Source: an uncultured Bacillota bacterium
Lineage (GTDB): Bacteria > Bacillota_I > Bacilli_A > RFN20 > CAG-449
Length of the DNA: 64,000 nucleotides
NCBI GenBank assembly: GCA_902493275.1
Contig: CABUOQ010000002.1
Span: 30,328-94,327 of the forward strand
Direction: 5' to 3'
A program made the position numbers and the translations under genes. The notes under the pieces are model-generated. The model saw nothing but the letters and a program-made list of their open reading frames with translations, made no database searches and was not told the DNA's origin. Shown here piece by piece: positions 1 to 25,601 of the stretch; positions within the stretch are counted from its first letter, which is position 1; every line of letters starts with the position of its first letter.

Positions 1-1211
1 CCAGTGAATTTGCCTTCCGAAGCATAGACAATTAATTTTCCATCTTCGGTTTTGCAATTAGAAAAAGTCATATCAAATGGTCTAATACGTCCTTCATTGC
101 TACCCCAACCGGAATCAGGATCGCACTTTGAGAACATCTTATGATCCGTTACCAATCCTTTTTCTGTCATCAATGATTGCGCTACAGGTCCGCAATGGAA
201 TAAAATTACTTTATTTTCATCTTCACCATAATTATTATTCCAATCTAAGCAAGCAGTAGGGTATTCGCTAGCTAATGCCATAGCTCTCATGGTAATTGCA
301 CTACATAAATCAATTTCACAAGAAGCGACAATGCCTCTATCATTTAACTCTGAGAGTAATACACATGGGCATACACGATAATATGTTTCCATCTCATTCC
401 AACATCTTAATGTAATTGCATCTAGATGATATTCATCAATATATTGATCAATTACAACTGACATTTTACTAAGAGTGATTATTCGATCTTTAGGTACGCA
501 TGTAAAATTAGTGTAATTTATTAATCTTTCTTTCTTAGCTATAACTTTTTCATCATCGTCTTTTAATTCATCAACCTTATGAAAGAATTCCGATAAATCA
601 AAAGATTCTACCGTGATTCCATATTTTTCTAATGCTATTTCATCATAACGAACAGTTTTAAAAGCTGTTGTTCTAGCACCTAATACTCCGATTGAGAATC
701 TTTTCATTCCTTTTACAACACGACATATTGCTGCAAAATCATCTAGATTTTCTTTAAACTTAGGATCTAAAGGATGAACCACATGAGGTTTTAAAACAGT
801 AAATGGTACTTTGTATTGATTGAAAACATCAGTGATAGAAAACTTACCACAAAATGCATCTCGACGATGAGCGAAATCCATTTTTCCAATCTCATCAGGA
901 TAAGCTTGCATAAGAACTGGGACTCCACAATCACGAAGTGCTGTTATTGCTCCGTTTTCATCAATGAAGATTGGCATACATAAAATAACACCATCATATT
1001 CACCTTCGTGATCCTTCAAAAATTGATGATAGAGCAATCCTTCATCTCTTGTTTCAACTGCGCCATATCTAGTTGCTTTTTCATCCATTATAATATAATT
1101 GTAACCCGCGTCAGTGACAGCCTTAACCATCTCTTCACGAGCGGTAGAAATTAGTTCAGCAGGCATAAAGCCTCTATTGCCAAAAAATAAAGCAAAAGTA
1201 TTTTTTTTCAT
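1..1211 (-). CDS. Sugar isomerase of the L-fucose/L-arabinose isomerase (FucI-like, short form) family. The N-terminus is at 1211 and the C-terminus is cut by the window edge.
   Basis: The reverse-strand ORF starts with ATG at 1209-1211 (MKKNTFALFFGNRGFMPAELI...), has an AAGGAA RBS upstream, and runs off the window. The long N-terminal region resembles FucI-family isomerases. Assigned from memory of the family, not from a search. Confidence 0.45.
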   Translation of the reverse strand, partial: MKKNTFALFFGNRGFMPAELISTAREEMVKAVTDAGYNYIIMDEKATRYGAVETRDEGLLYHQFLKDHEGEYDGVILCMPIFIDENGAITALRDCGVPVLMQAYPDEIGKMDFAHRRDAFCGKFSITDVFNQYKVPFTVLKPHVVHPLDPKFKENLDDFAAICRVVKGMKRFSIGVLGARTTAFKTVRYDEIALEKYGITVESFDLSEFFHKVDELKDDDEKVIAKKERLINYTNFTCVPKDRIITLSKMSVVIDQYIDEYHLDAITLRCWNEMETYYRVCPCVLLSELNDRGIVASCEIDLCSAITMRAMALASEYPTACLDWNNNYGEDENKVILFHCGPVAQSLMTEKGLVTDHKMFSKCDPDSGWGSNEGRIRPFDMTFSNCKTEDGKLIVYASEGKFT

Positions 1212-1280
1212 ATATAATATTTCCTTTCAAAATAATTTTAAGAAAATATCACTAATTTATATATTAGCTAAAATACATTT

Positions 1281-2135
1281 TTACTGTAATTTTGTCCGTA
1301 TGTTTTTTCTATATTTTCCCGCTGATACTCCAACATATTTTTTAAATACGCGTGTAAAATAATTATAGTCATTAAATCCTACTAAATAAGTTAATTCCAC
1401 TAAAGAACAATCACTTTCTTTTAAAATCTCTTTAGCTTTTTCAATTCTTTTAAACTTTACGTATTCAGATACTCCCATACTTAAATATTTATCTGCTTTT
1501 GTATAAAGTAATGTTCTACTAATATGCAAAGCTTTAGCGATATCATTCACATTTAATTTAGGATTTAAAATATTATTATCGATAAAGCAATCAATCTCAT
1601 TTAAAAACTTTTCTTTTTGTATTGAAAGCATCTTCTCACTTATCGCATATTTAGCTAACGCTAATAAAATAGTCGACATGCTTTTTAAACGCGTTTCTTC
1701 AACATATTCTATCTCAGACAATGCTTTTTTTAATTCATCAACATTATTCGTCATATAATTTAATTCTTTAAAACATTGATTTCTTTGTTCTTTATTTTTT
1801 ATATCACTTATTTGACCAAACATAATAAAGCCTACGATGGAACCATCAATTTTTAGATTAATCATTGCTTCAACCAACTTTGAATGGCAATGGTAAATAT
1901 TTAATTCATCGCTTTTTAGACATTTTAAAAACGATTCTTCATTCGATTTCGAGCATCTTTTCCTACCATTTTCATCTTTTTGTATTATTTCACAAAAACG
2001 ACAATTATGTGGAGGATAAGAGATAATCTCTTTATAAGATGTATCAAAAATTACAATTCTAACTCCAGTTAGAACATAGAAGCTTTTTAAAAGGTTTAGC
2101 AATTTTTCATAATTAAATTTAAGTTTCATCGACAT
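1281..2135 (-). CDS. AraC-family transcriptional regulator with an N-terminal Cys-containing PocR-like sensory domain.
   Basis: The C-terminus carries an AraC HTH (LVELTYLVGFNDYNYFTRVFKKYVGVSAGKYRKN). The N-terminal about 150 aa have a conserved Cys/His pattern (CRFCEII...HCHSKL) typical of PocR domains. It overlaps the upstream gene end by 17 nt. Confidence 0.6.
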   Translation of the reverse strand: MSMKLKFNYEKLLNLLKSFYVLTGVRIVIFDTSYKEIISYPPHNCRFCEIIQKDENGRKRCSKSNEESFLKCLKSDELNIYHCHSKLVEAMINLKIDGSIVGFIMFGQISDIKNKEQRNQCFKELNYMTNNVDELKKALSEIEYVEETRLKSMSTILLALAKYAISEKMLSIQKEKFLNEIDCFIDNNILNPKLNVNDIAKALHISRTLLYTKADKYLSMGVSEYVKFKRIEKAKEILKESDCSLVELTYLVGFNDYNYFTRVFKKYVGVSAGKYRKNIRTKLQ

Positions 2136-4404
2136 ATATACATCTATAATCTTTCGGGTAATAAATACCTAGTGAGTCGTCGCCATTATTAATTAATTTA
2201 ACTTCTTCATAATCTCCAACTTTAATTATTAACTCGCCTTTTTCTTTTAGATGTTCTTTTTTCAAATAGATAACTTTATTTTCTGAATCAATTCTTACCA
2301 AAGAGAATATTGCTTGGCAAAAAATAACTAAAATACAACTTGTCAATCCGTGATTTAAAGAAGCAAATACCGTATCATGTTCCCATAAAGTTCCTGTTAA
2401 TTCCGCCATTTTATAAAAATAAGAGATACTTTCGTCGGCAACTTCAACAAGATGATTATACTTCAAAAATATAAACAATCGCAAATAATCACCTATTAAT
2501 ACATTAGATTTATAAATTTCAGGGTATACTTTTTCATAATCTCGTGTTGGTCCGAAAAACTTTAATAAATTTTCAAATAAACTCGGATAATTTTTTTTAT
2601 TAGCAATATCAAAATAAAATGCATAATATTGACAAGTCTCAGTAATATTATTTGTTAATTCAAACTCACCATTATCATTACGGATCATATTATCAACAAA
2701 GAATGTGCCATTATAAGCATATTTTTGAATAGTTTTAATTAGTTTATGCCCTTTTTCTATCAGCGAATTATCGTTTAATAATTCTCCAGCACATATTAAC
2801 ATCTTACTATAAACCATATTGGAAGGAAAATTAATACCTTTAATGAATTCATCATCGTTAGCCTTAGACCATTCAATAAAAATCCATCCTTGAAGATTTT
2901 CTAATAAGCCAAGTTCATTTTCAAAATTTTTAAAATAGTCCAAAAGCATTTTAACTTTTGGTAAAGATTTGTCAATTAATATCTTATCTCCTGTTCTTTG
3001 ATAATAATTTTTCAATTCTAAAACATACCACATCGACCAATTTGGAATAAAATTACCATCAGGGAATTCTCCTGGATAACACATTGGGATCATATTTTTA
3101 GGTAATGTCGACATATTTTCCGCTAGAGCATAATTTTCTAAAAAATTGCGCTCTACAATGTTTTTATTAGTCAAAAGATATTCACTCATCGACGTAAAAT
3201 AGGAATCAAAAAGCCAACCTGCTCTTTCTCTCGATGGGCAATCGGTTAGAATATCGACGCTATTTTGTGCAAATGTTGAAACAGCTGCATCACAGATAGC
3301 TTGGATTCTTTTATTTTCAAATTCATATTTAAAACCATCAATAATAGTCTCATATAATCTTAAAGAAACATTATGGACTTTTATTTCTCCTTTAGCAATT
3401 ACTAAACGTAAATATTTAATGGTATATGGTTCAAAGCAAAGGTGATAAAGTCTTCCTTTTTTTATTTCATAAGAAACGATATTTTGCGTGGTATTACGAT
3501 AAAACTTTATGCTAAGTGGCACTTCTTTTCCGCATGAAGAATCAACTTCATCAAAAATAAAATATATTTCACTATCTCTCAGACATTCAATTTCAAATTC
3601 AATAAATCCGGTTTTAGACTTATCTAATTCATAAGTAATAAACGTTCCTTTTTTTAATTTGTCTATCGAATTATCAAGTGAATATTCAAGTTTTGAAATA
3701 TAGTCATTTGGATTAACTTCCCATTCATCAATTGGAAAAATTTTTAGATAATCCAGCAACATATAGCGATCGCGATAAGGCTTTTTATTTCGATTAAACT
3801 TAAATGTTCCTTTCTCTATCTGCTTAAATAATATATTAGGAAAAGTTTGATAAACTACATTTTTATTAAGATATTGTTTATGCCTAAAAATATCACATTT
3901 AACTTCCTCTAATGGATTAATTTTTCCCAATAAAAAATCTTTAAAGCTAAAATCAAAATGATACGATTCTGAAAAAGTTCTTTGAAAAGAAAAGCGCGAT
4001 ACCTTCACATAACGAGTTTTATTCAAATAACATTTAAAATCGTTATCATTAGATGTATACGCGATAACTTTGTTTCTTGTAAAAATTTCACAAACTAAAA
4101 AAGGCTCAGCACTTGAAAAGTACATTGAATTACAGCCACTAGCATAGTGTTCAATAATTATATAATGTTCACCTTTATCAAGTTCATAAGTATCAACTCT
4201 ATAAAACCTTTTAGCGGCTCTTGATGGTCCATATCCCATCAATTTACCATTATCAAATAATCTATATAATTCATTGGCCGTAATATTGATTTTAGCTTTT
4301 TCAGTCAAATTAATTCTTTGGGCAAAGAACAAAGAAATATTCATTTGTTCTAAATATTTAGTTGGATATATTGGTTTAGCTTTTTTAAAAAATTTATTTA
4401 ACAT
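2119..4404 (-). CDS. Alpha-L-rhamnosidase, GH78-like, cytoplasmic.
   Basis: It contains the GH78 catalytic-domain hallmark DCPSRERAGWLFD (DxPxRERxGW) and has no signal peptide. The track ORF extends to 4476, but the ATG at 4402-4404 (MLNKFFKKAK) is the only in-frame start with an RBS (AAGGTG); the ATGs at 4476, 4428 and 4344 have none. Start set to 4404. Confidence 0.7.
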   Translation of the reverse strand: MLNKFFKKAKPIYPTKYLEQMNISLFFAQRINLTEKAKINITANELYRLFDNGKLMGYGPSRAAKRFYRVDTYELDKGEHYIIIEHYASGCNSMYFSSAEPFLVCEIFTRNKVIAYTSNDNDFKCYLNKTRYVKVSRFSFQRTFSESYHFDFSFKDFLLGKINPLEEVKCDIFRHKQYLNKNVVYQTFPNILFKQIEKGTFKFNRNKKPYRDRYMLLDYLKIFPIDEWEVNPNDYISKLEYSLDNSIDKLKKGTFITYELDKSKTGFIEFEIECLRDSEIYFIFDEVDSSCGKEVPLSIKFYRNTTQNIVSYEIKKGRLYHLCFEPYTIKYLRLVIAKGEIKVHNVSLRLYETIIDGFKYEFENKRIQAICDAAVSTFAQNSVDILTDCPSRERAGWLFDSYFTSMSEYLLTNKNIVERNFLENYALAENMSTLPKNMIPMCYPGEFPDGNFIPNWSMWYVLELKNYYQRTGDKILIDKSLPKVKMLLDYFKNFENELGLLENLQGWIFIEWSKANDDEFIKGINFPSNMVYSKMLICAGELLNDNSLIEKGHKLIKTIQKYAYNGTFFVDNMIRNDNGEFELTNNITETCQYYAFYFDIANKKNYPSLFENLLKFFGPTRDYEKVYPEIYKSNVLIGDYLRLFIFLKYNHLVEVADESISYFYKMAELTGTLWEHDTVFASLNHGLTSCILVIFCQAIFSLVRIDSENKVIYLKKEHLKEKGELIIKVGDYEEVKLINNGDDSLGIYYPKDYRCIYVDET

Positions 4405-5896
4405 ATTGCACCTTAAATTGTAATTCATTTTCACTAAATTGTGAATTATCATAAATAAATGAATAAGGTTTAGCATCTATAATTATTTCATTATCCATTT
4501 TTTGTTTTTTTAAAGTTAGCATCATATCGCCAAAAAATAGCATATTTTTTTCTCTATTTATTTTTGAATTTAATTTAATAGTTATTTCCCCTTCTTTATC
4601 TAAAGGAAGATAAATCCAACCATTTTCAGCAACATAGTCTCTAGCATAAAAATTAAGTGGCAATTTTATCTTTATTTTTTTAGGGGAACATGGCTTAATG
4701 ACCTTTAAATTTATAATATTATTATTTAAATAAAATTCATTATCTAAAATGAAATGAATATCTTCATCCTCATATTCTTGTTTCAAAGAAAATGGAACTA
4801 CATAACAATCATCTTCTTTAAAACAACAAAAATCAGATATATATTTAAATCCATCGCCTAAGCGCATAGTGCAACAAAAATATGCCTCATATAAATATGA
4901 TTGCAATTCATACTTATCATCAATTGCACAAGTTGAACATCCTGCGCCACCATTATCTCTTTGAAAAGTTCTAATCGAATTAGTATAAATTCGATTAAAC
5001 AAATCGACATATGTCTCTTCTTTAGTGATTAAAAATAATTCTTTAGATAATATTAAACTATCGACAATGCAGCATGGTTCAGTCCAAGTATTGCTACGCT
5101 TAAACCAATTTATATTGGAGTAATCATAAGTCATACCTCTTACAATGTATTCTTTAAAAATATTCTTAGCATACTCTAAATACTTCTTTTCTTTAACGAT
5201 TTTATAAAAATTTAATATTGCTCTTGCACATGATAACGTTGCATGTGTTTGACATTCTAAATTAACATAATCAATTTTCAAAAATTCTTCAATTATAGCA
5301 ATTATAAGTTCTTTCAATCTTTGATCTTTTAAAAGCTCATATGCAGCAGTGATACCATCGAGCATAATAAATGCACACCCAACATCTGTTGAAACCTTCC
5401 AACCATTGAAAACGTTACCATCTAAACTACCTCCAACTCCGCCAAAACGACGATTATTGTCTGGATATCTTAGATAATATGGTGCAATTTGTAACAAATA
5501 ATTCTCAACTATGGATTTAACTTGTTTTAGATATTTTTCTTCTTTGGAAATTTTATAATATTCGATTAATCCTCTAAGAAACCATGAATTACCTGATACT
5601 TGTTGCTCATCAACAAATAAATCATTAAATGGCTCTCCAAAATAACCAAATTCATTTAAATTATCCTCGATATGATCAAATATATTTTTTAACTGCATTA
5701 AAATATCATCCTGCATTTGCTTATATCCATCAAACGCATGATATAAAGAAGTTAATGCTAAAATATCTCTTCCTTGAAAATCTCCCGGCCACGAACCGCC
5801 TTGATCAAAGAGTTTTTCAGATTGATAAATCGGATCGCTTAATCTATTGCGATTTAATTTCATTCTGCGATATAGATCACCTAAGATTTTTTTCAT
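4394..5896 (-). CDS. Cytoplasmic Cys-rich protein, putative glycoside hydrolase of unknown family.
   Basis: A 500-aa ORF with a strong RBS (GGGGAG) and no signal peptide, embedded in a glycan-utilisation operon. It has three CC dipeptides (TEPCC, YFCCT, DFCCF) reminiscent of Zn/Cys-dependent glycosidases. The family is not recognised with confidence. Confidence 0.35.
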   Translation of the reverse strand: MKKILGDLYRRMKLNRNRLSDPIYQSEKLFDQGGSWPGDFQGRDILALTSLYHAFDGYKQMQDDILMQLKNIFDHIEDNLNEFGYFGEPFNDLFVDEQQVSGNSWFLRGLIEYYKISKEEKYLKQVKSIVENYLLQIAPYYLRYPDNNRRFGGVGGSLDGNVFNGWKVSTDVGCAFIMLDGITAAYELLKDQRLKELIIAIIEEFLKIDYVNLECQTHATLSCARAILNFYKIVKEKKYLEYAKNIFKEYIVRGMTYDYSNINWFKRSNTWTEPCCIVDSLILSKELFLITKEETYVDLFNRIYTNSIRTFQRDNGGAGCSTCAIDDKYELQSYLYEAYFCCTMRLGDGFKYISDFCCFKEDDCYVVPFSLKQEYEDEDIHFILDNEFYLNNNIINLKVIKPCSPKKIKIKLPLNFYARDYVAENGWIYLPLDKEGEITIKLNSKINREKNMLFFGDMMLTLKKQKMDNEIIIDAKPYSFIYDNSQFSENELQFKVQYVK

Positions 5897-16025: not shown

Positions 16026-16040
16026 GATTTGCTCCTTTTA

Positions 16041-18177: not shown

Positions 18178-19484
18178 TCTTTTTTTGTTAAATCTTTTCT
18201 TTCAATATTATTAAAATCTGATGAATCAAAATATTTATTATCCTCAAAGGTTTCTTGTTCATTAGATGTTTCTTCATCTACATCATAATCCTTTTTTAGA
18301 TATCTTTCATCTATTGCCCATGTATCACAAATAATATCTTGTAAAGATCTTTTTCGTTTATTAATTAAGATGAAAAATAACGAGATAAAACATATAATAT
18401 CACAAATTAAAATAAGAGAGAAATTAGAAAAACCCACTCCATTTATTTCAAAAAATGGATACATTATTCCCGAATTTAATCCACCGCTTAAAACAGTAGA
18501 AAAAAGCATCAACCCATAGAACATTACAAAAGAGCAAATATTTCTGAATATCTTTTGTTTAGTTATTAATTCATATCCATCTTTATCGACAACTTTGATT
18601 TTTAATAGTTTTTTCCCAATTGTCTTCATGTCTTTAAAAATTAATTGAGGTAGAATAATCGTTAAAAAGAATGATAAAAGATAGCATCCAAAAGTAACAT
18701 AATCAATTATATAAGAACATTCAGCATAATTCTTTTTATATACATCATAGTGAGCTTTAAAGCGCGTTGAATTTATCAATTCATCGACTTGCTTATTCCA
18801 TAAATTTTGGAAAGCAACTGCTAAATAATTATAATTTGACACTCCAGCTTGATAGTTTTTATCGTTTAAATGTTTATATAATTCAATAGCGTAATCTGCA
18901 TCTAAATAAGGTAAAATCAAACTTTCTTCATCAAAATTCCACATTTCTATATTGACTGACGCATTTTTTAATTCTTTATAGAAAAAGAGCTTTGGATCAT
19001 CTTTACCAAATGAAACTATATTATCATTTTCATTATATTTAGGAACATAATTAACATAAAAATACGCTAAAGGATCGCTCTCATATGAAGCAATCTCAAG
19101 ATTGTTAGGATTTTCAATCTCAATTCCATAAGTTAAAAATAAACTATTATCAATTGAATATGAATATAATATATGTCTTAAACAATAGTCACGGAAAATA
19201 TCTTCTTGTTCACGTGGAGTTTTATATTGATGGTTTTCATTATCAATAAATTCATATATTTTAGCCTCTTCTTCTATTTCATAGCACGAAATAATTTCCT
19301 GGTTCAATGTATTTATTTTGCCTTTATAAGCAGGAATAATATCTAATATCCCATGTGAAGAAATAAGCAAAACAAAAGATATGACAATAAGTAAAAGCGC
19401 ATCGATAATATGCGCTTCAATTCTTCTACTAGCAGATGAATTTATTTCGTTCTTATATGGTCTTAGATAACCTTTTTTCTCCAT
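18174..19484 (-). CDS. RDD-family membrane protein carrying an approximately 230-aa soluble insertion.
   Basis: RDD hallmarks: N-terminal SRRIEAHIIDALLLIV (R..ID next to TM1) and C-terminal RSLQDIICDTWAID. There is a large non-membrane insert between TM1 and TM2. RBS GAGGAG. It sits 9 nt downstream of the ATPase gene. Confidence 0.45.
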   Translation of the reverse strand: MEKKGYLRPYKNEINSSASRRIEAHIIDALLLIVISFVLLISSHGILDIIPAYKGKINTLNQEIISCYEIEEEAKIYEFIDNENHQYKTPREQEDIFRDYCLRHILYSYSIDNSLFLTYGIEIENPNNLEIASYESDPLAYFYVNYVPKYNENDNIVSFGKDDPKLFFYKELKNASVNIEMWNFDEESLILPYLDADYAIELYKHLNDKNYQAGVSNYNYLAVAFQNLWNKQVDELINSTRFKAHYDVYKKNYAECSYIIDYVTFGCYLLSFFLTIILPQLIFKDMKTIGKKLLKIKVVDKDGYELITKQKIFRNICSFVMFYGLMLFSTVLSGGLNSGIMYPFFEINGVGFSNFSLILICDIICFISLFFILINKRKRSLQDIICDTWAIDERYLKKDYDVDEETSNEQETFEDNKYFDSSDFNNIERKDLTKKD

Positions 19485-19492
19485 AATCTCCT

Positions 19493-21226
19493 CTATTTAA
19501 TCAATTTTTCAGTTATAGAATCAAACAAATGAATCTTTGAAATGTCAAATACTAATTTTAGTTCATCACCAGAATTTACTAAAGTCTTTGCATGAATTTT
19601 TGAAACTATCTCTGAATCTTCAAAATTAGTATGTATATAATACTCGTGTCCAAGTAATTCTGCAACAGAAATTGTAAGATTAAATTCTTGACTTATGGCT
19701 TCATCAGTCAATATTCTATTACTTTGGTAAATATCTTCTGGTCGAATACCAAAAATAATTTGAATTTCTTTGCTTGTATCTATTAGTTTTAATCTATTTA
19801 TCGCGTCGATTAAATAATTACGACGATGATTTGAAGTTTCACATATAGCTAATTCTTTTTCTAATTTTGCTAATGTATCCGCTAATTTAGCATTATCTTT
19901 TTCCAACTTCATTTTTTCTTTTACTTCATTTATACTCGCTAGATAATTCTTCTTTTCAACAAATTTATCTTCTAATTCTTCTAGTTCTTTAATTAATAAA
20001 TGTAATTCTTTGCTATAGAAATCTTTTACTGCAACATCAAAATCATCAGTCAATTTTATTTTAGTGCCTTGTTTAAAAATCACTTGACCATTAATATATG
20101 TTGCATTAATTAAGTTCATAGCTGGTGAACCAATGAATGTCGCAACAAATACATTAGCTGGATGATTATAAATCTCAATTGGAGTGCCAATTTGCTGAAT
20201 ATAACCTTTATTCATAACGACAATTCTTGTTGCCATGGTCATAGCTTCAGTTTGATCATGTGTAACATATATTGTAGTAGCGTTTAAAGCATTATGTAAC
20301 TTAATAATTTCGCTTCTCATAGCCACTCTTAATTTGGCATCAAGATTGCTCAAAGGTTCATCCATCAAAAATACTTTGGCATTTTTAACAATAGCTCTTC
20401 CTAAGGCTACACGTTGACATTGTCCACCAGATAAAGCTTTAGGCTTACGATCTAAGTATTCAGAAATTTGTAAAATATCAGCTGCTTTTTCCACTCTAGA
20501 GCGAATTTCATCTTTTGGCAAATGCTTGTTTTCATAAACTTCTACTGGAGTTTTTTCAAGATATTCAATTTTTTCTTCTAACTCTTTTAAATCTTTTTCA
20601 ATTGATTCTTTTTCATCTTCATTAGCAAGCAATTGATATTTTTTTAAATTACGATACTGTTCTTTTAAAACTTTTAAAGCCTTCTTATTGATGCCTAGTA
20701 TTGGTTTACCATTTTCATCAACTTTCAAAGTTGGAAAACGTTTTATTTTTAAACCAAAAGACATATTCCCTGCCACTGACATATGAGGATAAAGAGCATA
20801 ACTTTGAAATACCATAGCAATATCACGATCTTTTGGATGAAGATCATTGGCATATGTCTTATCAATAAATAAATCGCCAGAAGTTATATCTTCTAAGCCA
20901 GCAATCATTCTTAAAGTCGTAGATTTGCCACATCCCGATGGTCCAACAAAAACTACAAATTCATGTTGCTTTATATCTAAATTAAAATCAAATACAGCTT
21001 GAACCTTATTATCATAAATCTTATTAATATGTCTTAAAGATATATATGATTCACTTGGTGCTTTCTTTATTTTTTTAGAATTCTTTTTTTGATAAGCTAC
21101 CATTTCTTCATATATTCTAGTTCTTTGCTTATATAATTGTTTTTCTTTTAATTTTAGTTCTCTTTTTTTGTTTTTAGCTTCTAATTTATCTGAAACTATT
21201 TTCTTATCTAAATCGCGATTCGACAT
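19493..21226 (-). CDS. MsmX/MalK-type sugar ABC transporter ATP-binding protein with coiled-coil insertions.
   Basis: Walker [11 protein letters not shown]-loop [14 protein letters not shown], signature [14 protein letters not shown], Walker [12 protein letters not shown] and H-loop VTHDQ. There is an approximately 60-aa K/E-rich insert between the Q-loop and the signature motif, a second K/E-rich insert in the C-terminal regulatory domain, and a Lys-rich N-terminal extension. The track start at 21244 (MKKEQD) encodes the AAGGAG RBS for the second Met (MSNRDL, ATG at 21224-21226), so the start is set to 21226. Confidence 0.75.
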
Positions 21227-21351
21227 ATCTTGCTCCTTTTTCATAGCTTAGTTTAGCAAAATATATATTTTGACGGAAGCATATAAGGCTTTTATATCAG
21301 TATTTTGCTATAAATAAGTCAAAAAAATATATATTCTTCAAGTATTAACTA

Positions 21352-22140
21352 CTAATCAATAATTCCCTTACGATAATTAATTTTAAAGGCTTTTGCAAGT
21401 TGAATTAATTGTTCATTGGTTATCGATTGATAAATCTTTTTATCATAAATTTTCATATATATCTCAGCTGCTTTTTCAATTGTTTCAATTAAGCCAAATA
21501 CTTCATCTAAGCTTCTACCTGTGCAAAATATTCCATGTTGTGCCCAAACGACAGAACGATACTCTTTCATTTTTTCAGCTGTAGCAATTCCGATTTCTTC
21601 TCCGCCGCATAAAATCCAAGGTAATACAGCTACTCCTTCAGGAAAAACCACAATAGATTCAGTTTGCATCTTCCAAAGGTCTTCGCTCCAATGATTAGAA
21701 TCTAAATCATGTACATGACTCATGCATATGACATTAGTTGGATGACAATGAATAACTAGGCGATGCAAAGGATCAACTTTTAATCTTTCAATATGACATT
21801 TTAAGTGAGTAGGAGCTTCTGAAGTTGGTCGACCACCATCTTCGTATCCCCAAAGTAATGATAAAGTTTTTCCATCTTTTACTTTTATAATTCCTAAATT
21901 ATTTTTAGGGTCTTTTAAACAATTTTTAAAATATTTGCCAGTACCCGTTATTATAAAATATTTACCAATTAAAGGAGTCAAATCATAATCGCAAATAAAA
22001 GTTCTTTTCTCATTTAAATCCGTGATTTGTTTAGCTTCTTCTTCAGAGATAATATATGATAAATTACCCCCGTTTCTTTCATCCCACCCATGTTTATATA
22101 ATAAATCTAAAATTTCTGTAACTTCTTCTATACAATTCAT
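21352..22140 (-). CDS. rhaD: Rhamnulose-1-phosphate aldolase (class II aldolase).
   Basis: GWDERNGGNLS, GTGKYFKN and VFPEGVAVLPW closely match recalled E. coli RhaD (GWDERNGGNLT, GSGKFFRN, VFPDGVGILPW). The start overlaps the rhaA stop (ATGA). Confidence 0.85.
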   Translation of the reverse strand: MNCIEEVTEILDLLYKHGWDERNGGNLSYIISEEEAKQITDLNEKRTFICDYDLTPLIGKYFIITGTGKYFKNCLKDPKNNLGIIKVKDGKTLSLLWGYEDGGRPTSEAPTHLKCHIERLKVDPLHRLVIHCHPTNVICMSHVHDLDSNHWSEDLWKMQTESIVVFPEGVAVLPWILCGGEEIGIATAEKMKEYRSVVWAQHGIFCTGRSLDEVFGLIETIEKAAEIYMKIYDKKIYQSITNEQLIQLAKAFKINYRKGIID

Positions 22141-23375
22141 TTTGTACCTCTTTCTAATAATACATTCTTTTCATATTTTTTAACTTGTTCATACCAATCT
22201 TGTTCACTTGCAACTTTTTGCTTGTTTAAATACTCACACCAAACATCTTGCCAAGGCAATGTCTTAATTTCTTCTTGTAAAGCAAGTAAATGTGAATAAT
22301 CCGCTGCATCTTGATATTCTTTTAAGATATCCCATGGTGTTAATAAAGCTTTTAAAATTGCTTTCTGCATATTTCTAGTTCCTATTACAATAGCCGCGAC
22401 ACGATTAATAGATCCATCGAAATAATCTAAACCTAAATATGATTTATTTAGTGCTTTACATCTTACTAATTCATCCGCTACTTCTTGTAAGTCATCGTTT
22501 AATTTTAAAACATGATCAGAATCCCAGCGAACAGGACGCGAAACATGAAATGCTAGGCGGGGTGAGAATAATAATAAAGATGATATTTTATCAGCAACAT
22601 TTTCTGTAGGATGGAAATGCCCCGTATCTAATAAACATAAAATATTGTTCTTCATCGCGTATGATAAATAAAATTCATTAGATCCTACCGTATAAGATTC
22701 AACACCAATTCCAAATACTTTTGATTCAACTGAAACATCAACTAAGTTTTTATTATATTTATATTTTAATATTTCATCTAAAGATTCTTTCAATCTTTTA
22801 CGTGGCCCTTCACGGTCAGAAGGAACTTCCTTCAATCCATCAGGAATCCATATATTGCATAGTGATTTCTGATGTAATTCTTTAGCAAAATATTCACATA
22901 CTTTAATACTATTAATACAATGCTCAATCCAATAATCACGCACCTCTTTATTTGGAGAAGATAAGCTTAAGCCATTTACAAGCATTGGTGAAGAAAAAAT
23001 TGTTGGATTAAAATCTAAGCCTAAGCCTCTATTATAGGCATATTCAACCCATCTTTTAAAATTTGCAGGAGTTATATCTCTTCTATCAACAATACTATCT
23101 GATTGATAAATAGCATGTAAATTGATTTTCTTTTTTCCTGGAATATACTTTAATGCTTCATCCAAGTCTGCCGTTAGTTCTTCAAAATTTCTTGCTTTTC
23201 CTGGATAATTACCTGTCGATTGAATTCCACCTGTTAACGCTTTTTTATTTTCAAAGCCATTAACATCATCTAATTGCCAACAATGAATTGAAATTGTTAC
23301 TTTAGATAACTCTTTTAAAACTTTGTTAACATCGATTCCATATTTTGCGTATATTTCTCTAGTGTCTTTTTTCAT
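22137..23375 (-). CDS. rhaA: L-rhamnose isomerase.
   Basis: SIHCWQLDDVNGFEN, LTGGIQSTGNYPGKARN, LDTGHFHPTE and VSRPVRWDSDHV match RhaA (SMHCWQGDDVSGFEN, LTGGIQATGNYPGKARN, GHFHPTE, VSRPVRWDSDHV). Confidence 0.9.
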   Translation of the reverse strand: MKKDTREIYAKYGIDVNKVLKELSKVTISIHCWQLDDVNGFENKKALTGGIQSTGNYPGKARNFEELTADLDEALKYIPGKKKINLHAIYQSDSIVDRRDITPANFKRWVEYAYNRGLGLDFNPTIFSSPMLVNGLSLSSPNKEVRDYWIEHCINSIKVCEYFAKELHQKSLCNIWIPDGLKEVPSDREGPRKRLKESLDEILKYKYNKNLVDVSVESKVFGIGVESYTVGSNEFYLSYAMKNNILCLLDTGHFHPTENVADKISSLLLFSPRLAFHVSRPVRWDSDHVLKLNDDLQEVADELVRCKALNKSYLGLDYFDGSINRVAAIVIGTRNMQKAILKALLTPWDILKEYQDAADYSHLLALQEEIKTLPWQDVWCEYLNKQKVASEQDWYEQVKKYEKNVLLERGTK

Positions 23376-23376
23376 A

Positions 23377-24684
23377 TTAATCCTCCATTTGTACTTTTAT
23401 ATTTCCTAAAGATGTAGCCTCGATTGGTAAGGCGATTATTTTTTTCTTAGCGTATTGTTCTACCAATTCATTTAGATATTTATTTTTAGCGCCGCCTCCT
23501 ACGATATAGCATTTATCATATTTATTCCCTGTTATATTCTGCAAATCTTTTAACGCTTGATCATAAGAGAATGCCAATGAATGATATACTGCATTAATTA
23601 AATCGTTATCATCTTTTGGTAAAGGTTTATTTTTTTGTTTAAGATAATCTAAAATCGCTTCTTTCATATTAATTGGCGATAAAAAAGCTTTATCATTAAC
23701 ATCAAATATTTCATGATAACTCGATTGTTTAGCCATAGTAACCATCTCAGGAACCTCTATTGCTAATTCTTTAGATAAGTTATTTATAATCCACATTCCC
23801 ATGATATTTTTTTGAAATCTAATATAGTTTGGACCATATTCATTAGAATAATTAGCGTCTTTAGCAACTTCACTATTAATGGCCTTAGGAATTTTAACTC
23901 CTAGCAATGACCATGTTCCCGAAGAGATATATGGCGAATTATCTTCCATAAATATTCCTTCAACTGCAGAGGCTGTATCATGGCTAGCACATAATTTAAC
24001 TAAAATATTACCTCCAACTTCATCTGAAACATCTTTTTTTAAATAGCCTAATTTATATCCAGGCTTATATACTGGATCATTAAACACATTAGATATGCCT
24101 AGTTTAGACAAAATTTTTTGCGAATAGTCCAATGTTTCACATGAGCAAAGTCCCATGGTGGAAGCATTAGTGTATTCATGTACTTTAACTCCAGTTAATT
24201 TATAAAGTAAATACTCTGGAATCATCAAAAATGTTTTCGCTTTTTGAAGTCGATTAGATTTTTTGTCTTCATAAAGCTGATATATAGAATTAAACACCTG
24301 AAATTGGCACCCTGTTATCTTATATAAATCATTAAATGATATTTTTTGATGCACTTCATCAATTATTTTTTGAGTTCTATTATCACGATATGCATAGACT
24401 GGTAATATTTCATTATCGAGCTCATCTATTAATACATAATCAACTCCCCAAGTGTCTATACTTAATGATTCAATTTGAGGATATTTACTTAAAGAAATTC
24501 TTATACCATTTTTCACTTCTTTAAATAGTTCATCAACATCCCAAATTAAATGGCCATCTTTGTTTTTTACTTCGTTTTTAAAACGATATACCTCTATTAA
24601 GCATATTTTTCCCTTATCGTCTTTATAACCTATTATATGTCTTCCAGAAGAGGCTCCGATATCAATTGCTAAATAATATTTCAT
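23377..24684 (-). CDS. rhaB: Rhamnulokinase (FGGY family).
   Basis: AYRDNRTQ, IMGMWII, VGGGAKNKYLNEL and IEATSLGNI match recalled RhaB (AYRDSRT, IMGLWLL, VGGGCQNTLLNQL, VEASTLGNI). RBS AAGGAG. Confidence 0.85.
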   Translation of the reverse strand: MKYYLAIDIGASSGRHIIGYKDDKGKICLIEVYRFKNEVKNKDGHLIWDVDELFKEVKNGIRISLSKYPQIESLSIDTWGVDYVLIDELDNEILPVYAYRDNRTQKIIDEVHQKISFNDLYKITGCQFQVFNSIYQLYEDKKSNRLQKAKTFLMIPEYLLYKLTGVKVHEYTNASTMGLCSCETLDYSQKILSKLGISNVFNDPVYKPGYKLGYLKKDVSDEVGGNILVKLCASHDTASAVEGIFMEDNSPYISSGTWSLLGVKIPKAINSEVAKDANYSNEYGPNYIRFQKNIMGMWIINNLSKELAIEVPEMVTMAKQSSYHEIFDVNDKAFLSPINMKEAILDYLKQKNKPLPKDDNDLINAVYHSLAFSYDQALKDLQNITGNKYDKCYIVGGGAKNKYLNELVEQYAKKKIIALPIEATSLGNIKVQMED

Positions 24685-24744: not shown

Positions 24745-24766
24745 ATTTATATAACATTATTGTAAA
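24728..24766. promoter_or_regulatory. Two 18-bp direct repeats ATATAACATTATTG(C/T)AAA phased 21 bp apart: candidate AraC-family (RhaR/RhaS-like) operator between rhaB and the divergent AraC gene.
   Basis: Repeat A is 24728-24745 and repeat B is 24749-24766, with 17 of 18 positions identical. Seventeen-bp half-sites in direct repeat with a 4-bp gap are the classical AraC/RhaS site architecture. Repeat A overlaps the -35 of the rhaB promoter. Repeat B contains TGTAAAAT (24761-24768), an extended -10-like element for the plus-strand AraC gene. Confidence 0.55.
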
Positions 24767-24791
24767 ATGATTTTAAGAAAGAAATATAAAT

Positions 24792-25601
24792 ATGCATCGA
24801 AGAATACCATTATCAAACCATTTAAACTCATCTCTTTTATATATATCTGAGACTGAACTCGATAAAGATTTTAAAGCATCATATCATTCACATCCAAATC
24901 TAGAATTATTGTTAATAAATGAAGGAACTGGTAATTTAATAACTACAAATCGCCGAATATCCATTAAAAAAGGAGATTTAATAATTATTAATTCTCATTC
25001 ATTACATTGTGAAGTTTCATCTAGCAAATGCCGTTTTTACTCAATAGGTGTCAATCGTTTAGATGCTAATTTAGACAATAATTTTTCTAAGAAAATAATA
25101 AAATTGCCATTAGATAAAACCGACTATGATAGCATTAATTTTTTATACCATTTTATAATAACAGAAGCTGAAAATAAAAAAATGCATTTTGAAGATATCA
25201 TATTTAATGCCTTCCAGCAAATTAAATATTTCATTCAAAGAACTTATCAAATAAAGTTTATTTCATCATCCAAAGAATACGATAATAGCGTTATTTCCAG
25301 CGCTAAAAACATAATTGAAAATTATTTTTATACAAATATTAATATCAACGATTTATCACATCGCTTATCGATTTCACCATCAACTCTATCCCACCAATTT
25401 AAAAAAATAACTGGTCGTAGCGTCATTGAATATAAACATATATGTCAAATTAATGAAGCTTGTAATTTGTTAAAAATAACCGATATGAATATTCTTGACA
25501 TTGCCTTTGCAACTGGATTCACTAGTTCATCTTACTTCAGTGAAATGTTTAAAAAAATGATTAAATTGTCACCAAAAGAATACCGTTTAATGAACAAATA
25601 A
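24792..25601 (+). CDS. AraC-family regulator, probable rhamnose-responsive activator (RhaR/RhaS-like), divergent from rhaBAD.
   Basis: N-terminal cupin (YHSHPNLELLLINEGTGNL...HSLHCE) and C-terminal AraC HTH (DLSHRLSISPSTLSHQFKKITGRSVIEYKHI...ILDIAFATGFTSSSYFSEMFKK). Confidence 0.7.
   Translation: MHRRIPLSNHLNSSLLYISETELDKDFKASYHSHPNLELLLINEGTGNLITTNRRISIKKGDLIIINSHSLHCEVSSSKCRFYSIGVNRLDANLDNNFSKKIIKLPLDKTDYDSINFLYHFIITEAENKKMHFEDIIFNAFQQIKYFIQRTYQIKFISSSKEYDNSVISSAKNIIENYFYTNININDLSHRLSISPSTLSHQFKKITGRSVIEYKHICQINEACNLLKITDMNILDIAFATGFTSSSYFSEMFKKMIKLSPKEYRLMNK

What the first reader, a model, noticed from the sequence alone, without database searches (positions are those of the whole stretch)
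1..25601. A 25-kb rhamnose-glycan utilisation supercluster that ties a GH78 rhamnosidase, surface beta-helix enzymes, an ATPase-less ABC importer, an orphan MsmX-type ATPase and rhaBAD into one functional unit
The sequence shows one minus-strand operon with this gene order:
- two CUT1 permeases and a large solute-binding protein;
- three surface lipoproteins with Ser-rich tethers;
- a Cys-rich cytoplasmic protein;
- a GH78 alpha-L-rhamnosidase (DCPSRERAGW);
- a PocR-AraC regulator;
- a FucI-like isomerase.

The importer has no ATPase of its own. The only MalK/MsmX-type ATPase in the window lies directly downstream of rhaB-rhaA-rhaD on the same strand. Three AraC-family regulators are present.

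The inference is a coherent system that trims a rhamnose-containing polysaccharide outside the cell, imports the oligosaccharides, releases rhamnose inside, and funnels it through RhaA, RhaB and RhaD. Candidate substrates are plant rhamnogalacturonan-I, or bacterial or algal rhamnans. Expression of the ATPase would be coupled to the rhamnose operon. The substrate and the exact enzyme families of the surface proteins are unknown.
Basis: partly seen in the sequence, partly recalled or inferred. Interest (0 to 1): 0.6.

Follow-up and report, generated by a model that had tools for sequence, protein, structure and literature searches.

The report
Glycan-utilisation locus of uncultured gut Bacilli
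This is a real sugar-polymer harvesting gene cluster from an uncultured small-genome gut bacterium; its transport ATPase belongs to the cluster through a shared control sequence, the rhamnose-breakdown genes are an add-on found in only some relatives, and the polymer it targets is still unknown.

Summary
The interpretation needs revising.

Two of the three surface proteins are distant relatives of GH110 alpha-galactosidases. They keep the catalytic Asp triad but have a changed sugar pocket. The third is a non-catalytic protein made of several beta-sandwich domains, probably a binding protein. The Cys-rich protein has a GH127/GH146-type fold. The GH78-like enzyme keeps the RhaB D/E/D motif.

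In 19 related genomes from the CAG:449/CAG:826/Enteromonas group, one block is conserved: ATPase, RDD protein, an opposed AraC gene, two permeases, the binding protein and both GH110-like genes. Wherever the downstream DNA was fetched, it continues with the surface binding protein, the GH127-like gene and the GH78-like gene.

rhaBAD lies upstream of the ATPase in only 8 of the 19. A PocR-isomerase-kinase-aldolase cassette is also optional and sits in different places. Most of it lies beyond the window start.

An exact 15-bp box lies about 80-125 nt upstream of both the ATPase gene and the first permease gene, and nowhere else in about 370 kb. So the ATPase is tied to the importer by a shared operator, not intrinsically by the rhamnose operon. 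In seven relatives, however, it is fused directly behind rhaD.

A rhamnose-bearing substrate is plausible but unproven. This is a new variant of a known kind of locus, of moderate interest.

The parts
1..1211 (-). FucI-C-type sugar isomerase. It is cut by the window start: 403 of 466 aa are present. It is the first gene of an accessory cassette (isomerase, FGGY kinase, DUF4432, class II aldolase) that continues beyond the window.
   Evidence: PF02952 in the strain matching the window at 98-100% protein identity (L081). Distant match to the SftI sulfoquinovose isomerase model: 97 bits against a cut-off of 700. No PDB sequence hit.
1281..2135 (-). Regulator with a PocR sensor domain and an AraC helix-turn-helix. 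It overlaps the 3' end of the GH78-like gene by 17 nt. It travels with the isomerase cassette.
   Evidence: PocR 2.4e-31, HTH_18 1.4e-15; it lies next to the cassette in L085 and L011.
2119..4404 (-). Cytoplasmic distant GH78-like (alpha/alpha)6 glycosidase, a putative alpha-L-rhamnosidase. It is 761 aa; the ORF itself extends to 4476.
   Evidence: Bac_rhamnosid6H 1.3e-18. RhaB (2okx) 1.5e-13. The sequence D-C-P-S-R-E-R-A-G-W-L-F-D aligns with RhaB D567/E572/D579. Gene callers place the start 11 nt inside the upstream gene.
4394..5896 (-). Cytoplasmic GH127/GH146-like six-hairpin glycosidase with invariant Glu and Cys residues.
   Evidence: PF07944 7.1e-09; model pLDDT 94.7; Foldseek best hits HypBA1 (3.5e-14, TM 0.62) and the GH146 structures. 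E273, C275, C320, C341 and C342 are invariant in 41 homologues.
5974..8214 (-). Surface lipoprotein with a Ser-rich tether, a Big_2 domain, an Ig-like domain and three beta-sandwich domains of carbohydrate-binding-module type. Putative surface glycan-binding protein; no catalytic fold found.
8264..11314 (-). Surface lipoprotein: Big_2 domain, GH110-like right-handed beta-helix catalytic domain, and a C-terminal domain of about 230 aa that is unassigned.
   Evidence: PpaGal (9i4f) 6e-24, and 7jw4. The catalytic residues D321, D344 and D345, plus R451 and R453, are conserved.
11315..13405 (-). Surface lipoprotein: a long Ser-rich tether and a GH110-like beta-helix domain. It is a paralogue of the previous gene (30% identity).
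13408..15147 (-). Large lipoprotein in the position of the solute-binding protein of the importer.
   Evidence: lipobox LVGC. AlgQ2/AlgQ1 at 8e-4. Conserved position in all relatives.
15159..17012 (-). Two CUT1-type ABC permease genes (16041-17012 and 15159-16025).
   Evidence: BPD_transp_1. They are 67-90% identical in relatives.
17030..17048 (-). -10 box TATAAT, immediately followed by a cre-like box TGAAAGCGCTTGAA (two mismatches to the consensus in this genome).
   Evidence: The same layout is seen in relatives, where the boxes are perfect or have one mismatch.
17092..17106 (+). Copy of the 15-bp operator box. It reads GCAAAAAAGTATATA in operon direction, has 1 mismatch, and lies about 94 nt upstream of the first permease gene.
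17326..18177 (+). AraC-family regulator (AraC_binding + HTH). It lies between the ATPase-RDD unit and the importer, on the opposite strand. It is conserved in every relative and is the candidate binder of the 15-bp box.
18174..19484 (-). RDD-family membrane protein with a loop of about 210 aa between its first two transmembrane helices. It starts 8 nt after the ATPase gene and is a conserved partner of it.
19493..21226 (-). UgpC/MalK/MsmX-type ATPase of 577 aa. It has a Lys-rich N-terminal extension and two insertions: about 63 aa in the helical subdomain and about 95 aa in the C-terminal domain.
21319..21333 (-). Exact copy of the 15-bp operator box TATATATTTTTTTGA, 107 nt upstream of the ATPase start, in the rhaD-ATPase spacer.
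21352..24684 (-). rhaB (23377-24684), rhaA (22137-23375) and rhaD (21352-22140): the L-rhamnose catabolic operon. It is an accessory cassette at this locus.
   Evidence: RhaA 612.8 bits against a cut-off of 572; RhaD 318.8 against 170; RhaB 422.9 against 527.95, which is below the cut-off. Present in 8 of 19 relatives.
24792..25601 (+). AraC-family regulator transcribed divergently from rhaB; the likely rhamnose regulator.
   Evidence: it co-occurs with rhaBAD in L003-L006, L011 and L018.

Best explanation
**What it is.** This is a Gram-positive polysaccharide-utilisation locus. It is conserved in uncultured, low-GC gut Bacilli related to 'Firmicutes bacterium CAG:449', 'Coprobacillus sp. CAG:826' and Candidatus Enteromonas.

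**Core, shown by synteny.** The conserved order is:
1. an insertion-bearing MalK-type ATPase followed by an RDD membrane protein;
2. an oppositely oriented AraC regulator;
3. two CUT1 permeases and a large binding lipoprotein;
4. two surface-tethered GH110-like beta-helix glycosidases;
5. a surface protein made of several beta-sandwich domains, probably a binding protein;
6. a cytoplasmic GH127/146-like enzyme;
7. a cytoplasmic GH78-like enzyme.

**Proposed mechanism, inferred.**
- The binding protein captures a glycan at the cell surface.
- The two GH110-like enzymes cut it into oligosaccharides.
- The importer takes these up, energised by the adjacent ATPase.
- The two cytoplasmic enzymes dismantle them. 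The GH78-like enzyme releases L-rhamnose. The GH127-like enzyme releases a second sugar, which is beta-L-arabinofuranose if the family specificity holds.

**Regulation, inferred from cis-elements.**
- The ATPase-RDD unit and the permease operon form one regulon, driven by a shared 15-bp box. The AraC regulator between them probably binds it.
- Both units are probably also under CcpA/cre catabolite control.

**Accessory cassettes.** rhaBAD and the PocR-isomerase-kinase-DUF4432-aldolase module are catabolic cassettes that different lineages have attached to the locus at different places. They would handle the released monosaccharides. The glycan itself is not identified.
For: **Synteny**
- ATPase, RDD, AraC, both permeases, the binding protein and both GH110-like genes are in the same order in L001-L019. 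ATPase identity there is 57-78%.
- The surface binding protein, the GH127-like gene and the GH78-like gene follow wherever the downstream sequence was fetched: L080-L087, with GH127-like identity down to 43%.

**Shared operator**
- There are 28 exact copies of TATATAYTTTTTTGA in window-plus-18-loci.
- All lie in the ATPase-upstream or AraC/permease intergenic regions. None lies elsewhere in about 370 kb.
- The box is kept even where the flanking intergenic sequence does not align.

**Enzyme assignments**
- GH110-like.
- GH127/146-like.
- GH78-like.
- Binding protein.

**Other points**
- Lipoboxes are present on the four surface proteins and absent from the two cytoplasmic enzymes.
- Other CUT1 systems in related genomes have their own MalK-type gene directly after a permease gene (L029 and L043). 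A locus-specific ATPase is therefore normal in this clade.
- The cassettes are mobile. rhaBAD is in 8 of 19 loci. The isomerase cassette is at the 3' end in the window strain and in L085, on the far side of rhaBAD in L011, and absent in L083 and L086.
Against: - No biochemical or expression data exist for any part of this locus.
- The binding protein is assigned mostly by its position; its best PDB hit is only 8e-4.
- The GH110-like enzymes differ from canonical GH110 at three of the sugar-pocket positions checked (R265 to Y, W486 to F/Y, E480 to A/L/G). They also lack the GLAA-B barrel Pfam domain. Their specificity, and whether they act endo or exo, is unknown.
- The GH78 catalytic base (E841 equivalent) was not checked.
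- It was not shown that the AraC protein binds the box.
- Whether genomes without an adjacent rhaBAD carry it elsewhere could not be tested.
Confidence: 0.65

Rival explanations
1. The whole 25.6 kb is one rhamnose-glycan unit, in which ATPase expression is coupled to rhaBAD and all released sugar flows through RhaA, RhaB and RhaD.
For: - In the window, no terminator-like site was found between rhaD and the ATPase, so read-through is possible.
- In L003-L006, L011, L013 and L018 the rhaD stop codon is only about 12-27 nt from the ATPase start, and no 15-bp box lies between them. There the ATPase looks like the fourth gene of the rha operon.
- rhaBAD has no transporter gene of its own. The only locally encoded source of rhamnose is the importer plus the GH78-like enzyme.
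Against: - rhaBAD is absent upstream of the ATPase in 11 of 19 relatives. Unrelated genes occupy that position.
- The window keeps the ATPase's own upstream region: the conserved box and a TG-extended -10-like element.
- A second isomerase-kinase-aldolase cassette shows that not all the sugar goes through RhaBAD.
- The rhaB promoter region in the window has no 15-bp box.
Confidence: 0.25
2. The ATPase is a general, multitask MsmX-type energiser for all ATPase-less CUT1 importers of the genome, as in Bacillus subtilis. Its position next to this importer is incidental.
For: - It is a MalK/UgpC-type protein.
- B. subtilis MsmX serves several importers, including the pectin-oligosaccharide ones (PMC5730181).
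- It forms a transcription unit separate from the permeases.
Against: - Synteny with this particular importer is conserved across genomes down to 57% ATPase identity.
- The 15-bp box is exact and locus-specific, and both promoters share it.
- Related genomes also carry other MalK-type genes inside other CUT1 operons (L029 and L043).
- This rival does not exclude the best explanation. A locus-regulated ATPase can still cross-serve, as FrlP and MsmX do (PMC12632257).
Confidence: 0.2
3. The locus targets alpha-galactosylated host or dietary glycans, such as blood-group-B or alpha-Gal-type epitopes or galactans. The GH110-like enzymes would act as true exo-alpha-1,3-galactosidases, and the link to rhamnose would be coincidental.
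For: - GH110 is the only family with significant PDB sequence hits.
- The catalytic triad, R451, R453, N348 and the E488 equivalent are all conserved.
- All characterised GH110 enzymes are alpha-1,3-galactosidases (PMC7939477).
- A canonical GH110 sits in a host-glycan locus with an MsmX-type ATPase in Helcococcus.
Against: - Three of the sugar-pocket residues checked are replaced in every orthologue. That pocket is described as remarkably conserved across GH110.
- The GLAA-B barrel domain is not detected.
- Exo-galactosidases at the cell surface would not by themselves produce oligosaccharides for the importer.
- No galactose pathway or other host-glycan enzyme is in the locus.
- Two deoxy-sugar-type cassettes are repeatedly linked to it.
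Confidence: 0.15

Closest known systems
Bacillus subtilis pectin/rhamnogalacturonan oligosaccharide importers (YesOPQ, YtcQP-YteP) energised by the separately encoded MsmX ATPase (PMC5730181)
   Same: - CUT1-type importers with no ATPase gene in the operon.
- A large lipoprotein as binding protein.
- A MalK-type ATPase encoded elsewhere.
- Cytoplasmic breakdown of imported plant-glycan oligosaccharides, with AraC-type and CcpA control.
   Different: - Here the ATPase lies two genes upstream of the importer in every relative and shares a specific operator with it.
- It carries three clade-specific extra segments.
- It is always followed by an RDD membrane protein.
- The enzyme set (GH110-like, GH127-like, GH78-like) is unrelated to the B. 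subtilis PL11/GH105 set.
FrlP (YurJ) of B. subtilis, an ATPase encoded at the end of the frlBONMD-frlP catabolic operon and induced by its substrate (PMC12632257)
   Same: A MalK-type ATPase that is regulated by the specific substrate of one importer and is co-transcribed with catabolic genes. That matches the arrangement in the seven relatives where the ATPase directly follows rhaD.
   Different: In the window, the ATPase keeps its own upstream region. The operon it follows (rhaBAD) does not encode the importer.
GH110 alpha-1,3-galactosidases (PdGH110B 7jw4, PpaGal 9i4f, B. bifidum AgaBb; PMC7939477, PMC11368712)
   Same: - Right-handed beta-helix.
- The three catalytic Asp residues (D321, D344, D345).
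- N348, R451, R453 and E488 equivalents all conserved.
   Different: - Only distant similarity (E 6e-24 to 1e-12).
- R265, W486 and E480 of the sugar pocket are replaced in all orthologues.
- No GLAA-B barrel Pfam domain.
- Lipoprotein tethers, Big_2 domains and an extra C-terminal domain are present.
- The activity is untested.
GH127/GH146 beta-L-arabinofuranosidases (HypBA1 3wkx, Bll3HypBA1 8k7x, BT0349 6yqh)
   Same: - These are the best structural matches to the model (E about 1e-14, TM 0.6).
- The family-invariant E-x-C ... C-C residues resemble the Zn/Cys catalytic centre. The HypBA1 residue numbers for that centre are from my own knowledge.
   Different: - About 10-13% identity.
- 500 aa against 640-770 aa.
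- The Pfam match covers only a third of the domain.
- No phmmer hit in the PDB.
- The acid/base residue was not identified.
Sulfo-EMP2 pathway (SqvD PF02952 isomerase, SqiK kinase, SqiA PF01116 aldolase; PMC9594981)
   Same: The accessory cassette has the same logic: a FucI-like isomerase, a kinase, a mutarotase-like protein, and a class II FBA-family aldolase able to cleave a ketose-1-phosphate.
   Different: - The kinase is of the FGGY family, not PfkA.
- The mutarotase candidate is DUF4432, not DUF4867.
- There is no sulfoquinovosidase, sulfolactaldehyde enzyme or exporter.
- The isomerase scores 97 bits against the 700-bit SftI cut-off.
- The sugar is therefore not sulfoquinovose, and it remains unknown.

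Membership tests
GH110 (alpha-1,3-galactosidase) | Right-handed parallel beta-helix catalytic domain with significant sequence similarity to family members | tested here: met
   phmmer against the PDB gives 6e-24 (9i4f), 3.9e-17 (8pvs) and 2.1e-15 (7jw4) for 8264-11314. For 11315-13405 it gives 6e-14 to 5e-12. The Pfam Beta_helix match is only weak.
GH110 (alpha-1,3-galactosidase) | Catalytic acid D344 and base pair D321/D345 (PdGH110B numbering) | tested here: met
   These residues align with T-A-D and H-D-D. Both motifs are invariant in all 17 sequences of both paralogue groups. The residue roles are taken from PMC7939477.
GH110 (alpha-1,3-galactosidase) | Conserved galactose-binding pocket (-1 subsite: R265, N348, E480, W486, E488, R453) | tested here: not met
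   N348, R453 and E488 are kept. R265 becomes Tyr, W486 becomes Phe/Tyr, and E480 becomes Ala/Leu/Gly in every orthologue. N85 was not checked.
GH110 (alpha-1,3-galactosidase) | GLAA-B beta-barrel accessory domain recognised by Pfam in canonical members | tested here: not met
   Not detected in either window protein at E <= 0.01. It is detected in the canonical Helcococcus GH110 (PF23764, 1e-08).
GH110 (alpha-1,3-galactosidase) | Alpha-1,3-galactosidase activity | not testable with these tools
   Needs an enzyme assay.
GH127/GH146 (beta-L-arabinofuranosidase, DUF1680) | Six-hairpin catalytic domain of the family | tested here: met
   PF07944 scores 35.6 bits against a cut-off of 24.9, but only over profile positions 237-365. 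The model has pLDDT 94.7, and its top 21 Foldseek hits are all GH127 or GH146 (3.5e-14 to 1.8e-11, TM about 0.6).
GH127/GH146 (beta-L-arabinofuranosidase, DUF1680) | Zn-binding Glu/Cys3 centre with a Cys nucleophile (HypBA1 E338, C340, C417, C418; residue numbers from my own knowledge) | tested here: inconclusive
   E273, C275, C341 and C342 (and also C320) are invariant in 41 homologues. They fall inside the stretch that profile-aligns with GH146 structure 8k7x (273-437 against 345-522, E 5e-4). No residue-by-residue superposition was made, and the acid/base residue was not located.
GH78 (alpha-L-rhamnosidase) | (alpha/alpha)6 catalytic domain | tested here: met
   Bac_rhamnosid6H scores 67.8 bits against a cut-off of 24.5, over profile positions 9-161 of 339. 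RhaB (2okx) gives 1.5e-13 and 3cih gives 8e-07.
GH78 (alpha-L-rhamnosidase) | Catalytic carboxylates D567, E572 and D579 of RhaB | tested here: met
   The window sequence DCPSRERAGWLFD aligns with DCPSYEQVFWVGD of RhaB. The residue roles are from PMC3663046, citing Cui et al..
GH78 (alpha-L-rhamnosidase) | Second catalytic carboxylate (E841 of RhaB) | not tested
   The alignment stops at RhaB residue 695.
GH78 (alpha-L-rhamnosidase) | The N-terminal beta-sandwich domains typical of the family | tested here: inconclusive
   No Pfam hit to these domains. There is only a weak, non-significant N-terminal alignment to RhaB (i-E 4.5).
CUT1 ABC importer with a MalK/MsmX-type ATPase | Two BPD_transp_1 permeases, an extracellular binding lipoprotein, and an ATPase with a MalK-type C-terminal domain | tested here: met
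   Permeases. ATPase: ABC_tran + OB_MalK + TOBE_2, and the UgpC subfamily model at 449.9 against 432. The binding protein is supported only by its lipobox, its position and a weak AlgQ hit.
MsmX-type multitask (orphan) ATPase | Serves several importers and is not linked to a single one | not testable with these tools
   A whole-genome inventory and genetics are needed. Conserved synteny and the shared operator argue for a primary link to one importer.
L-rhamnose catabolic operon rhaBAD | RhaA isomerase, RhaB kinase and RhaD aldolase | tested here: met
   RhaA 612.8 bits against a cut-off of 572. RhaD 318.8 against 170. RhaB has rhamnulokinase as its best hit but scores below the cut-off (422.9 against 527.95).

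The most novel reading that the evidence does not exclude
The locus could be the signature glycan-harvesting system of an uncultured lineage of small-genome gut Bacilli. On this reading it targets a rhamnose-containing glycan that no characterised locus handles, using three enzyme clades that are effectively new:
- a GH110-derived surface glycanase pair with a re-modelled sugar pocket;
- a short GH127/146-like Cys enzyme;
- a divergent GH78.

On the same reading, the insertion-bearing ATPase and its constant RDD partner would form a previously undescribed accessory module of a CUT1 importer. The RDD protein would act as an extra membrane subunit or tether.
Probability: 0.25. Interest if true: 0.6.

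Novelty: new variant of a known kind. Interest (0 to 1): 0.42.

Why it matters
**A testable handle on uncultured bacteria.** These small-genome gut Bacilli are found in human, chicken, ruminant and horse gut assemblies. As far as I know they have no cultured, studied representative. This locus gives a concrete hypothesis for what they eat.

**New enzymes to assay.** The locus points to three divergent glycosidase clades whose specificities are worth testing. The GH110-like pair is the most interesting, because it keeps the catalytic machinery while changing the sugar pocket.

**How an importer and a separate ATPase are kept together.** The locus is a clear natural example of an importer with no ATPase gene of its own being held to a specific, separately transcribed ATPase by a shared operator. 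In sister lineages the same ATPase has instead been captured by the rhaBAD operon. That natural variation could be used to test how the expression of ABC energisers is matched to the substrate.

Tried and rejected
**Look-ups that found nothing**
- Exact-sequence look-ups of the window's ATPase (both possible starts) and of RhaA found nothing on record. The matching strain was reached instead through a 99%-identical homologue of the GH127-like protein.
- NCBIfam has no model for the GH78-like, GH127-like, GH110-like, binding or surface proteins.
- The GH127-like protein and the isomerase have no phmmer hit in the PDB.
- Literature searches for DUF4432 and for RFN20 gave nothing useful.

**Ideas considered and rejected**
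- *The isomerase cassette is a sulfoquinovose pathway.* Rejected because the score is far below the equivalog cut-off, and no sulfoquinovosidase or sulfolactaldehyde genes are present.
- *The 15-bp box is a generic promoter element.* Rejected because all 28 exact copies lie in the two specific intergenic regions, and the box occurs in both orientations upstream of the ATPase.
- *The cre box in the window is a strong site.* Not upheld. It has two mismatches here and did not pass the 1-mismatch scan, although it is near-perfect in relatives.

**Substrate assignment**
- Rhamnogalacturonan-I, arabinogalactan-protein/gum arabic, rhamnogalacturonan-II chain B, bacterial rhamnans and alpha-Gal epitopes were all weighed. 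None is supported by a specific enzyme.
- The promoter and terminator consensus scans were not informative on their own. Promoter-like hits were at the level seen in shuffled sequence.

Full report

Yes. The window is low-GC, about 30%.

The long minus-strand operon runs, in order of transcription:
- two BPD_transp_1 permeases (17012-16041 and 16025-15159);
- a 579-aa lipoprotein in the binding-protein position (15147-13408);
- three lipoproteins with lipobox cysteines and Ser-rich linkers (13405-11315, 11314-8264 and 8214-5974);
- a 500-aa Cys-rich protein without a signal peptide (5896-4394);
- a GH78-like protein carrying DCPSRERAGW (4404-2119);
- a PocR-AraC regulator (2135-1281);
- a Fucose_iso_C-type isomerase, cut by the window start (1211-1).

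Gaps between these genes are 0-77 nt, or the genes overlap.

On the same strand, rhaB, rhaA and rhaD (24684-21352) are followed by a UgpC/MalK-type ATPase and an RDD-family membrane protein. The only other ABC ATPases in the 64 kb are EcfA1/EcfA2, next to EcfT. So 'the only MalK-type ATPase in the window' is correct. Three AraC-family regulators are present.

**2. What the unknown proteins are.**

*The two beta-helix lipoproteins.*
- They are paralogues, 30% identical.
- Their only significant matches among solved structures are GH110 alpha-1,3-galactosidases: 6e-24 to PpaGal, and 1e-12 to 1e-17 to others.
- The catalytic acid D344 and the base pair D321/D345 of PdGH110B align with T-A-D and H-D-D in the window proteins. 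R451, R453, N348 and E488 also align.
- All of these residues are invariant in 17 orthologues of both paralogue groups.
- Three residues of the galactose pocket are replaced in every orthologue: R265 by Tyr, W486 by Phe/Tyr, and E480 by Ala/Leu/Gly. The GH110 structure paper describes that pocket as remarkably conserved.
- The Pfam GLAA-B barrel domain of canonical GH110 is not detected. It is detected in a canonical Helcococcus GH110.
- I therefore call them GH110-like. The machinery is the same, but the specificity is uncertain.

*The third lipoprotein.* Its model (pLDDT 83 outside the tether) is built entirely of beta-strands: a Big_2 domain, an Ig-like domain and three beta-sandwich domains. 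The closest structures are tandem CBM22 domains and the carbohydrate-binding domains of Cry and Vip3 toxins. No catalytic fold was found. It is most simply a surface glycan-binding protein.

*The Cys-rich protein.*
- It passes the Pfam GH127 threshold over only a third of the domain, and it has no direct PDB sequence hit.
- A 41-sequence alignment gave a model with pLDDT 94.7. Its 21 best structural matches are all GH127 or GH146 beta-L-arabinofuranosidases (about 1e-14, TM about 0.6, 10-13% identity).
- E273, C275, C320, C341 and C342 are invariant. This is consistent with the Zn/Cys centre of that superfamily.

*The GH78-like protein.* It matches Bacillus RhaB at 1.5e-13 and keeps the D567/E572/D579 carboxylates.

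*The binding protein.* It has only a weak AlgQ1/2 match.

**3. Comparative genomics changes the picture.**

A scan of one genome per species with the ATPase found 19 loci with the same neighbourhood. All are from uncultured gut 'Bacilli/Mollicutes' assemblies: Firmicutes bacterium CAG:449, Coprobacillus sp. CAG:826, Candidatus Enteromonas and unnamed MAGs from human, chicken, ruminant and other guts.

In all of them the order is ATPase, RDD, an opposed AraC gene, permease 1, permease 2, the binding protein, and both GH110-like genes.

Following homologues of the GH127-like protein showed what comes next. The third lipoprotein, the GH127-like gene and the GH78-like gene follow in every case, down to 43% identity.

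rhaBAD is not part of this conserved block.
- It lies upstream of the ATPase in 8 of the 19 loci.
- In the other 11 that position holds unrelated genes: an amidase and an LRR protein; TetR and MMPL; pyruvate formate-lyase; a PHP protein.

The PocR-isomerase unit is also optional.
- In a strain whose genes match the window's at 98-100% protein identity (GCA_964314975.1), the isomerase is followed by an FGGY kinase, a DUF4432 protein and a class II FBA/tagatose-bisphosphate-type aldolase. This is a full isomerase-kinase-aldolase cassette, and most of it lies beyond the window.
- The same cassette is at the 3' end of the operon in L085.
- It is on the far side of rhaBAD in L011.
- It is missing in Candidatus Enteromonas (L083) and in L086.

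**4. The ATPase belongs to the importer through a shared operator.**

I aligned the regions upstream of the ATPase gene across genomes. This exposed an exactly conserved 15-mer, TATATAYTTTTTTGA, about 80-125 nt upstream of the ATPase start in every genome where the ATPase has its own intergenic region. Three closely related loci (L014, L016 and L017) are the exception: their copy has two mismatches. The window's copy is at 21319-21333.

The same 15-mer lies about 83-126 nt upstream of the first permease gene in nearly all genomes. In the window it is at 17092-17106, with one mismatch.

All 28 exact copies in window-plus-18-loci fall in these two regions, and none falls elsewhere in about 370 kb. 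The box is kept even between genomes whose intergenic DNA otherwise does not align. Upstream of the ATPase it occurs in either orientation. Both features point to a transcription-factor site rather than a core promoter element. The AraC gene that always sits between the two units is the obvious candidate, but this is an inference.

The permease promoter also shows a conserved TATAAT followed directly by a cre-like box. That box is near-perfect in relatives and has two mismatches in the window. Relatives also have cre-like boxes upstream of the ATPase.

Related genomes carry further MalK-type genes inside other CUT1 operons (L029 and L043). A locus-specific ATPase is therefore normal in this clade.

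**5. How rhamnose fits in.**

- In seven of the eight rhaBAD-bearing relatives, the rhaD stop codon is only about 12-27 nt from the ATPase start, and the 15-bp box is gone. There the ATPase looks like the fourth gene of the rhamnose operon.
- In the window and in L007, the ATPase's own upstream region is retained behind rhaD.
- No terminator-like site was detected in that spacer. Both read-through from rhaD and independent initiation are therefore possible.

Three observations make rhamnose a plausible product of the imported oligosaccharide:
- rhaBAD is repeatedly attached to this locus;
- rhaBAD has no transporter gene of its own;
- the GH78 catalytic motif is conserved.

None of these proves it. 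The second cassette follows the same logic as the sulfo-EMP2 pathway: a FucI-like isomerase and a class II aldolase acting on a ketose-1-phosphate (PMC9594981). It is clearly not a sulfoquinovose pathway. It implies a second released sugar, still unidentified.

**6. Most likely mechanism.**

*Shown:*
- the gene content and the fold or family assignments;
- the conserved synteny;
- the shared cis-element;
- the lipoprotein or cytoplasmic location signals.

*Inferred:*
1. The multi-domain lipoprotein binds a glycan at the cell surface.
2. The two GH110-like enzymes cut it into importable oligosaccharides. The locus encodes no other extracellular enzyme, so these two must generate the transport substrate.
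3. The importer, powered by the adjacent ATPase, takes the oligosaccharides up.
4. The GH127-like and GH78-like enzymes dismantle them in the cytoplasm.
5. RhaBAD and the isomerase cassette, where present, catabolise the released sugars.

The substrate is unknown. No lyase, GH105 or uronate-pathway gene supports rhamnogalacturonan-I or ulvan. No galactose pathway or other host-glycan enzyme supports alpha-Gal epitopes.

**7. Comparison with known systems, and novelty.**

The nearest functional precedents are in Bacillus subtilis:
- its pectin-oligosaccharide importers carry no ATPase gene and are energised by MsmX (PMC5730181);
- FrlP is a substrate-induced ATPase encoded at the end of a catabolic operon (PMC12632257).

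This locus differs in four ways:
- fixed synteny and a shared operator between the ATPase and one importer;
- the ATPase's three clade-specific extra segments;
- its constant RDD partner;
- a set of three strongly divergent glycosidase clades.

It is a new variant of a known kind of system, not a new kind.

**8. Verdict.**

The locus is coherent and the ATPase link is very probably right. The rhamnose operon, however, is an accessory rather than the organising principle. The surface enzymes belong to the GH110 lineage. An additional catabolic cassette extends beyond the window.
- Interest is moderate (0.42).

Noticed in passing
window 19493-21226: The MalK-type ATPase is 577 aa, against about 367 aa for a canonical MsmX. 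It has a Lys-rich N-terminal extension of about 58 aa, an insertion of about 63 aa in the helical subdomain (the part that contacts the permeases), and a coiled-coil-like insertion of about 95 aa in the C-terminal domain. All three segments are conserved in sequence across the clade. A second paralogue (L029) lacks only the first insertion.
   Followed up: partly
window 18174-19484: The RDD-family membrane protein (436 aa) has a loop of about 210 aa with no family match between its first and second transmembrane helices. It starts 8 nt after the ATPase stop and accompanies the ATPase in all 19 syntenic genomes (35-53% identity). Its role is unknown.
   Followed up: partly
beyond window start; L081 14686-19400: The truncated isomerase begins a four-gene cassette: a Fucose_iso_C isomerase, an XylB-like FGGY kinase, a DUF4432 protein and a GatY-like class II aldolase. 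The isomerase is unusually conserved (76-77% identity) compared with its neighbours (28-61%). The sugar it handles is unknown.
   Followed up: partly
loci L003-L006, L011, L013, L018 (rhaD-ATPase junction): In seven related genomes the ATPase start lies about 12-27 nt after the rhaD stop, and the 15-bp box is lost. The importer's ATPase appears to have been captured by the rhamnose operon. In L013 a copy of the box with one mismatch lies 87 nt upstream of rhaB.
   Followed up: partly
window 17030-17043, and the equivalent sites in L001-L019: A cre-like (CcpA) box lies directly after the -10 element of the permease promoter. Relatives also have one upstream of the ATPase. It is near-perfect in relatives but has two mismatches in this genome.
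   Followed up: partly
window 4394-4476: The longest ORF of the GH78-like gene overlaps the end of the GH127-like gene by 83 nt. Gene callers in the matching strain use a start 72 nt further downstream (761 aa), which leaves an 11-nt overlap.
   Followed up: yes
L062 (Helcococcus kunzii ATCC 51366) 858-20126: A cultured Firmicute has a canonical MsmX-type ATPase as the first gene of a CUT1 importer operon. The operon is flanked by GH2, two GH84 enzymes (one fused to a sialidase-like BNR domain), a canonical GH110 and a GH38. This looks like a host-glycan locus and is only distantly related to the one studied here.
   Followed up: partly
window 8264-11314, residues about 790-1016: The larger GH110-like protein has a C-terminal domain of about 230 aa with no Pfam or PDB sequence match. 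Its paralogue lacks this domain.
   Followed up: no
window 25631-31595 and 37512-61700: The flanking genes are housekeeping: DJ-1/PfpI, gatB, gatA, a UvrD-type helicase, a class II aminoacyl-tRNA synthetase (D/K/N type), a PTS EIIC_2 protein, truA and ecfT-ecfA2-ecfA1. A run of short minus-strand ORFs at about 47-61 kb looks like a ribosomal-protein cluster, but I did not run those ORFs against any family library. The locus therefore sits in the core chromosome, not on an obvious mobile element.
   Followed up: no
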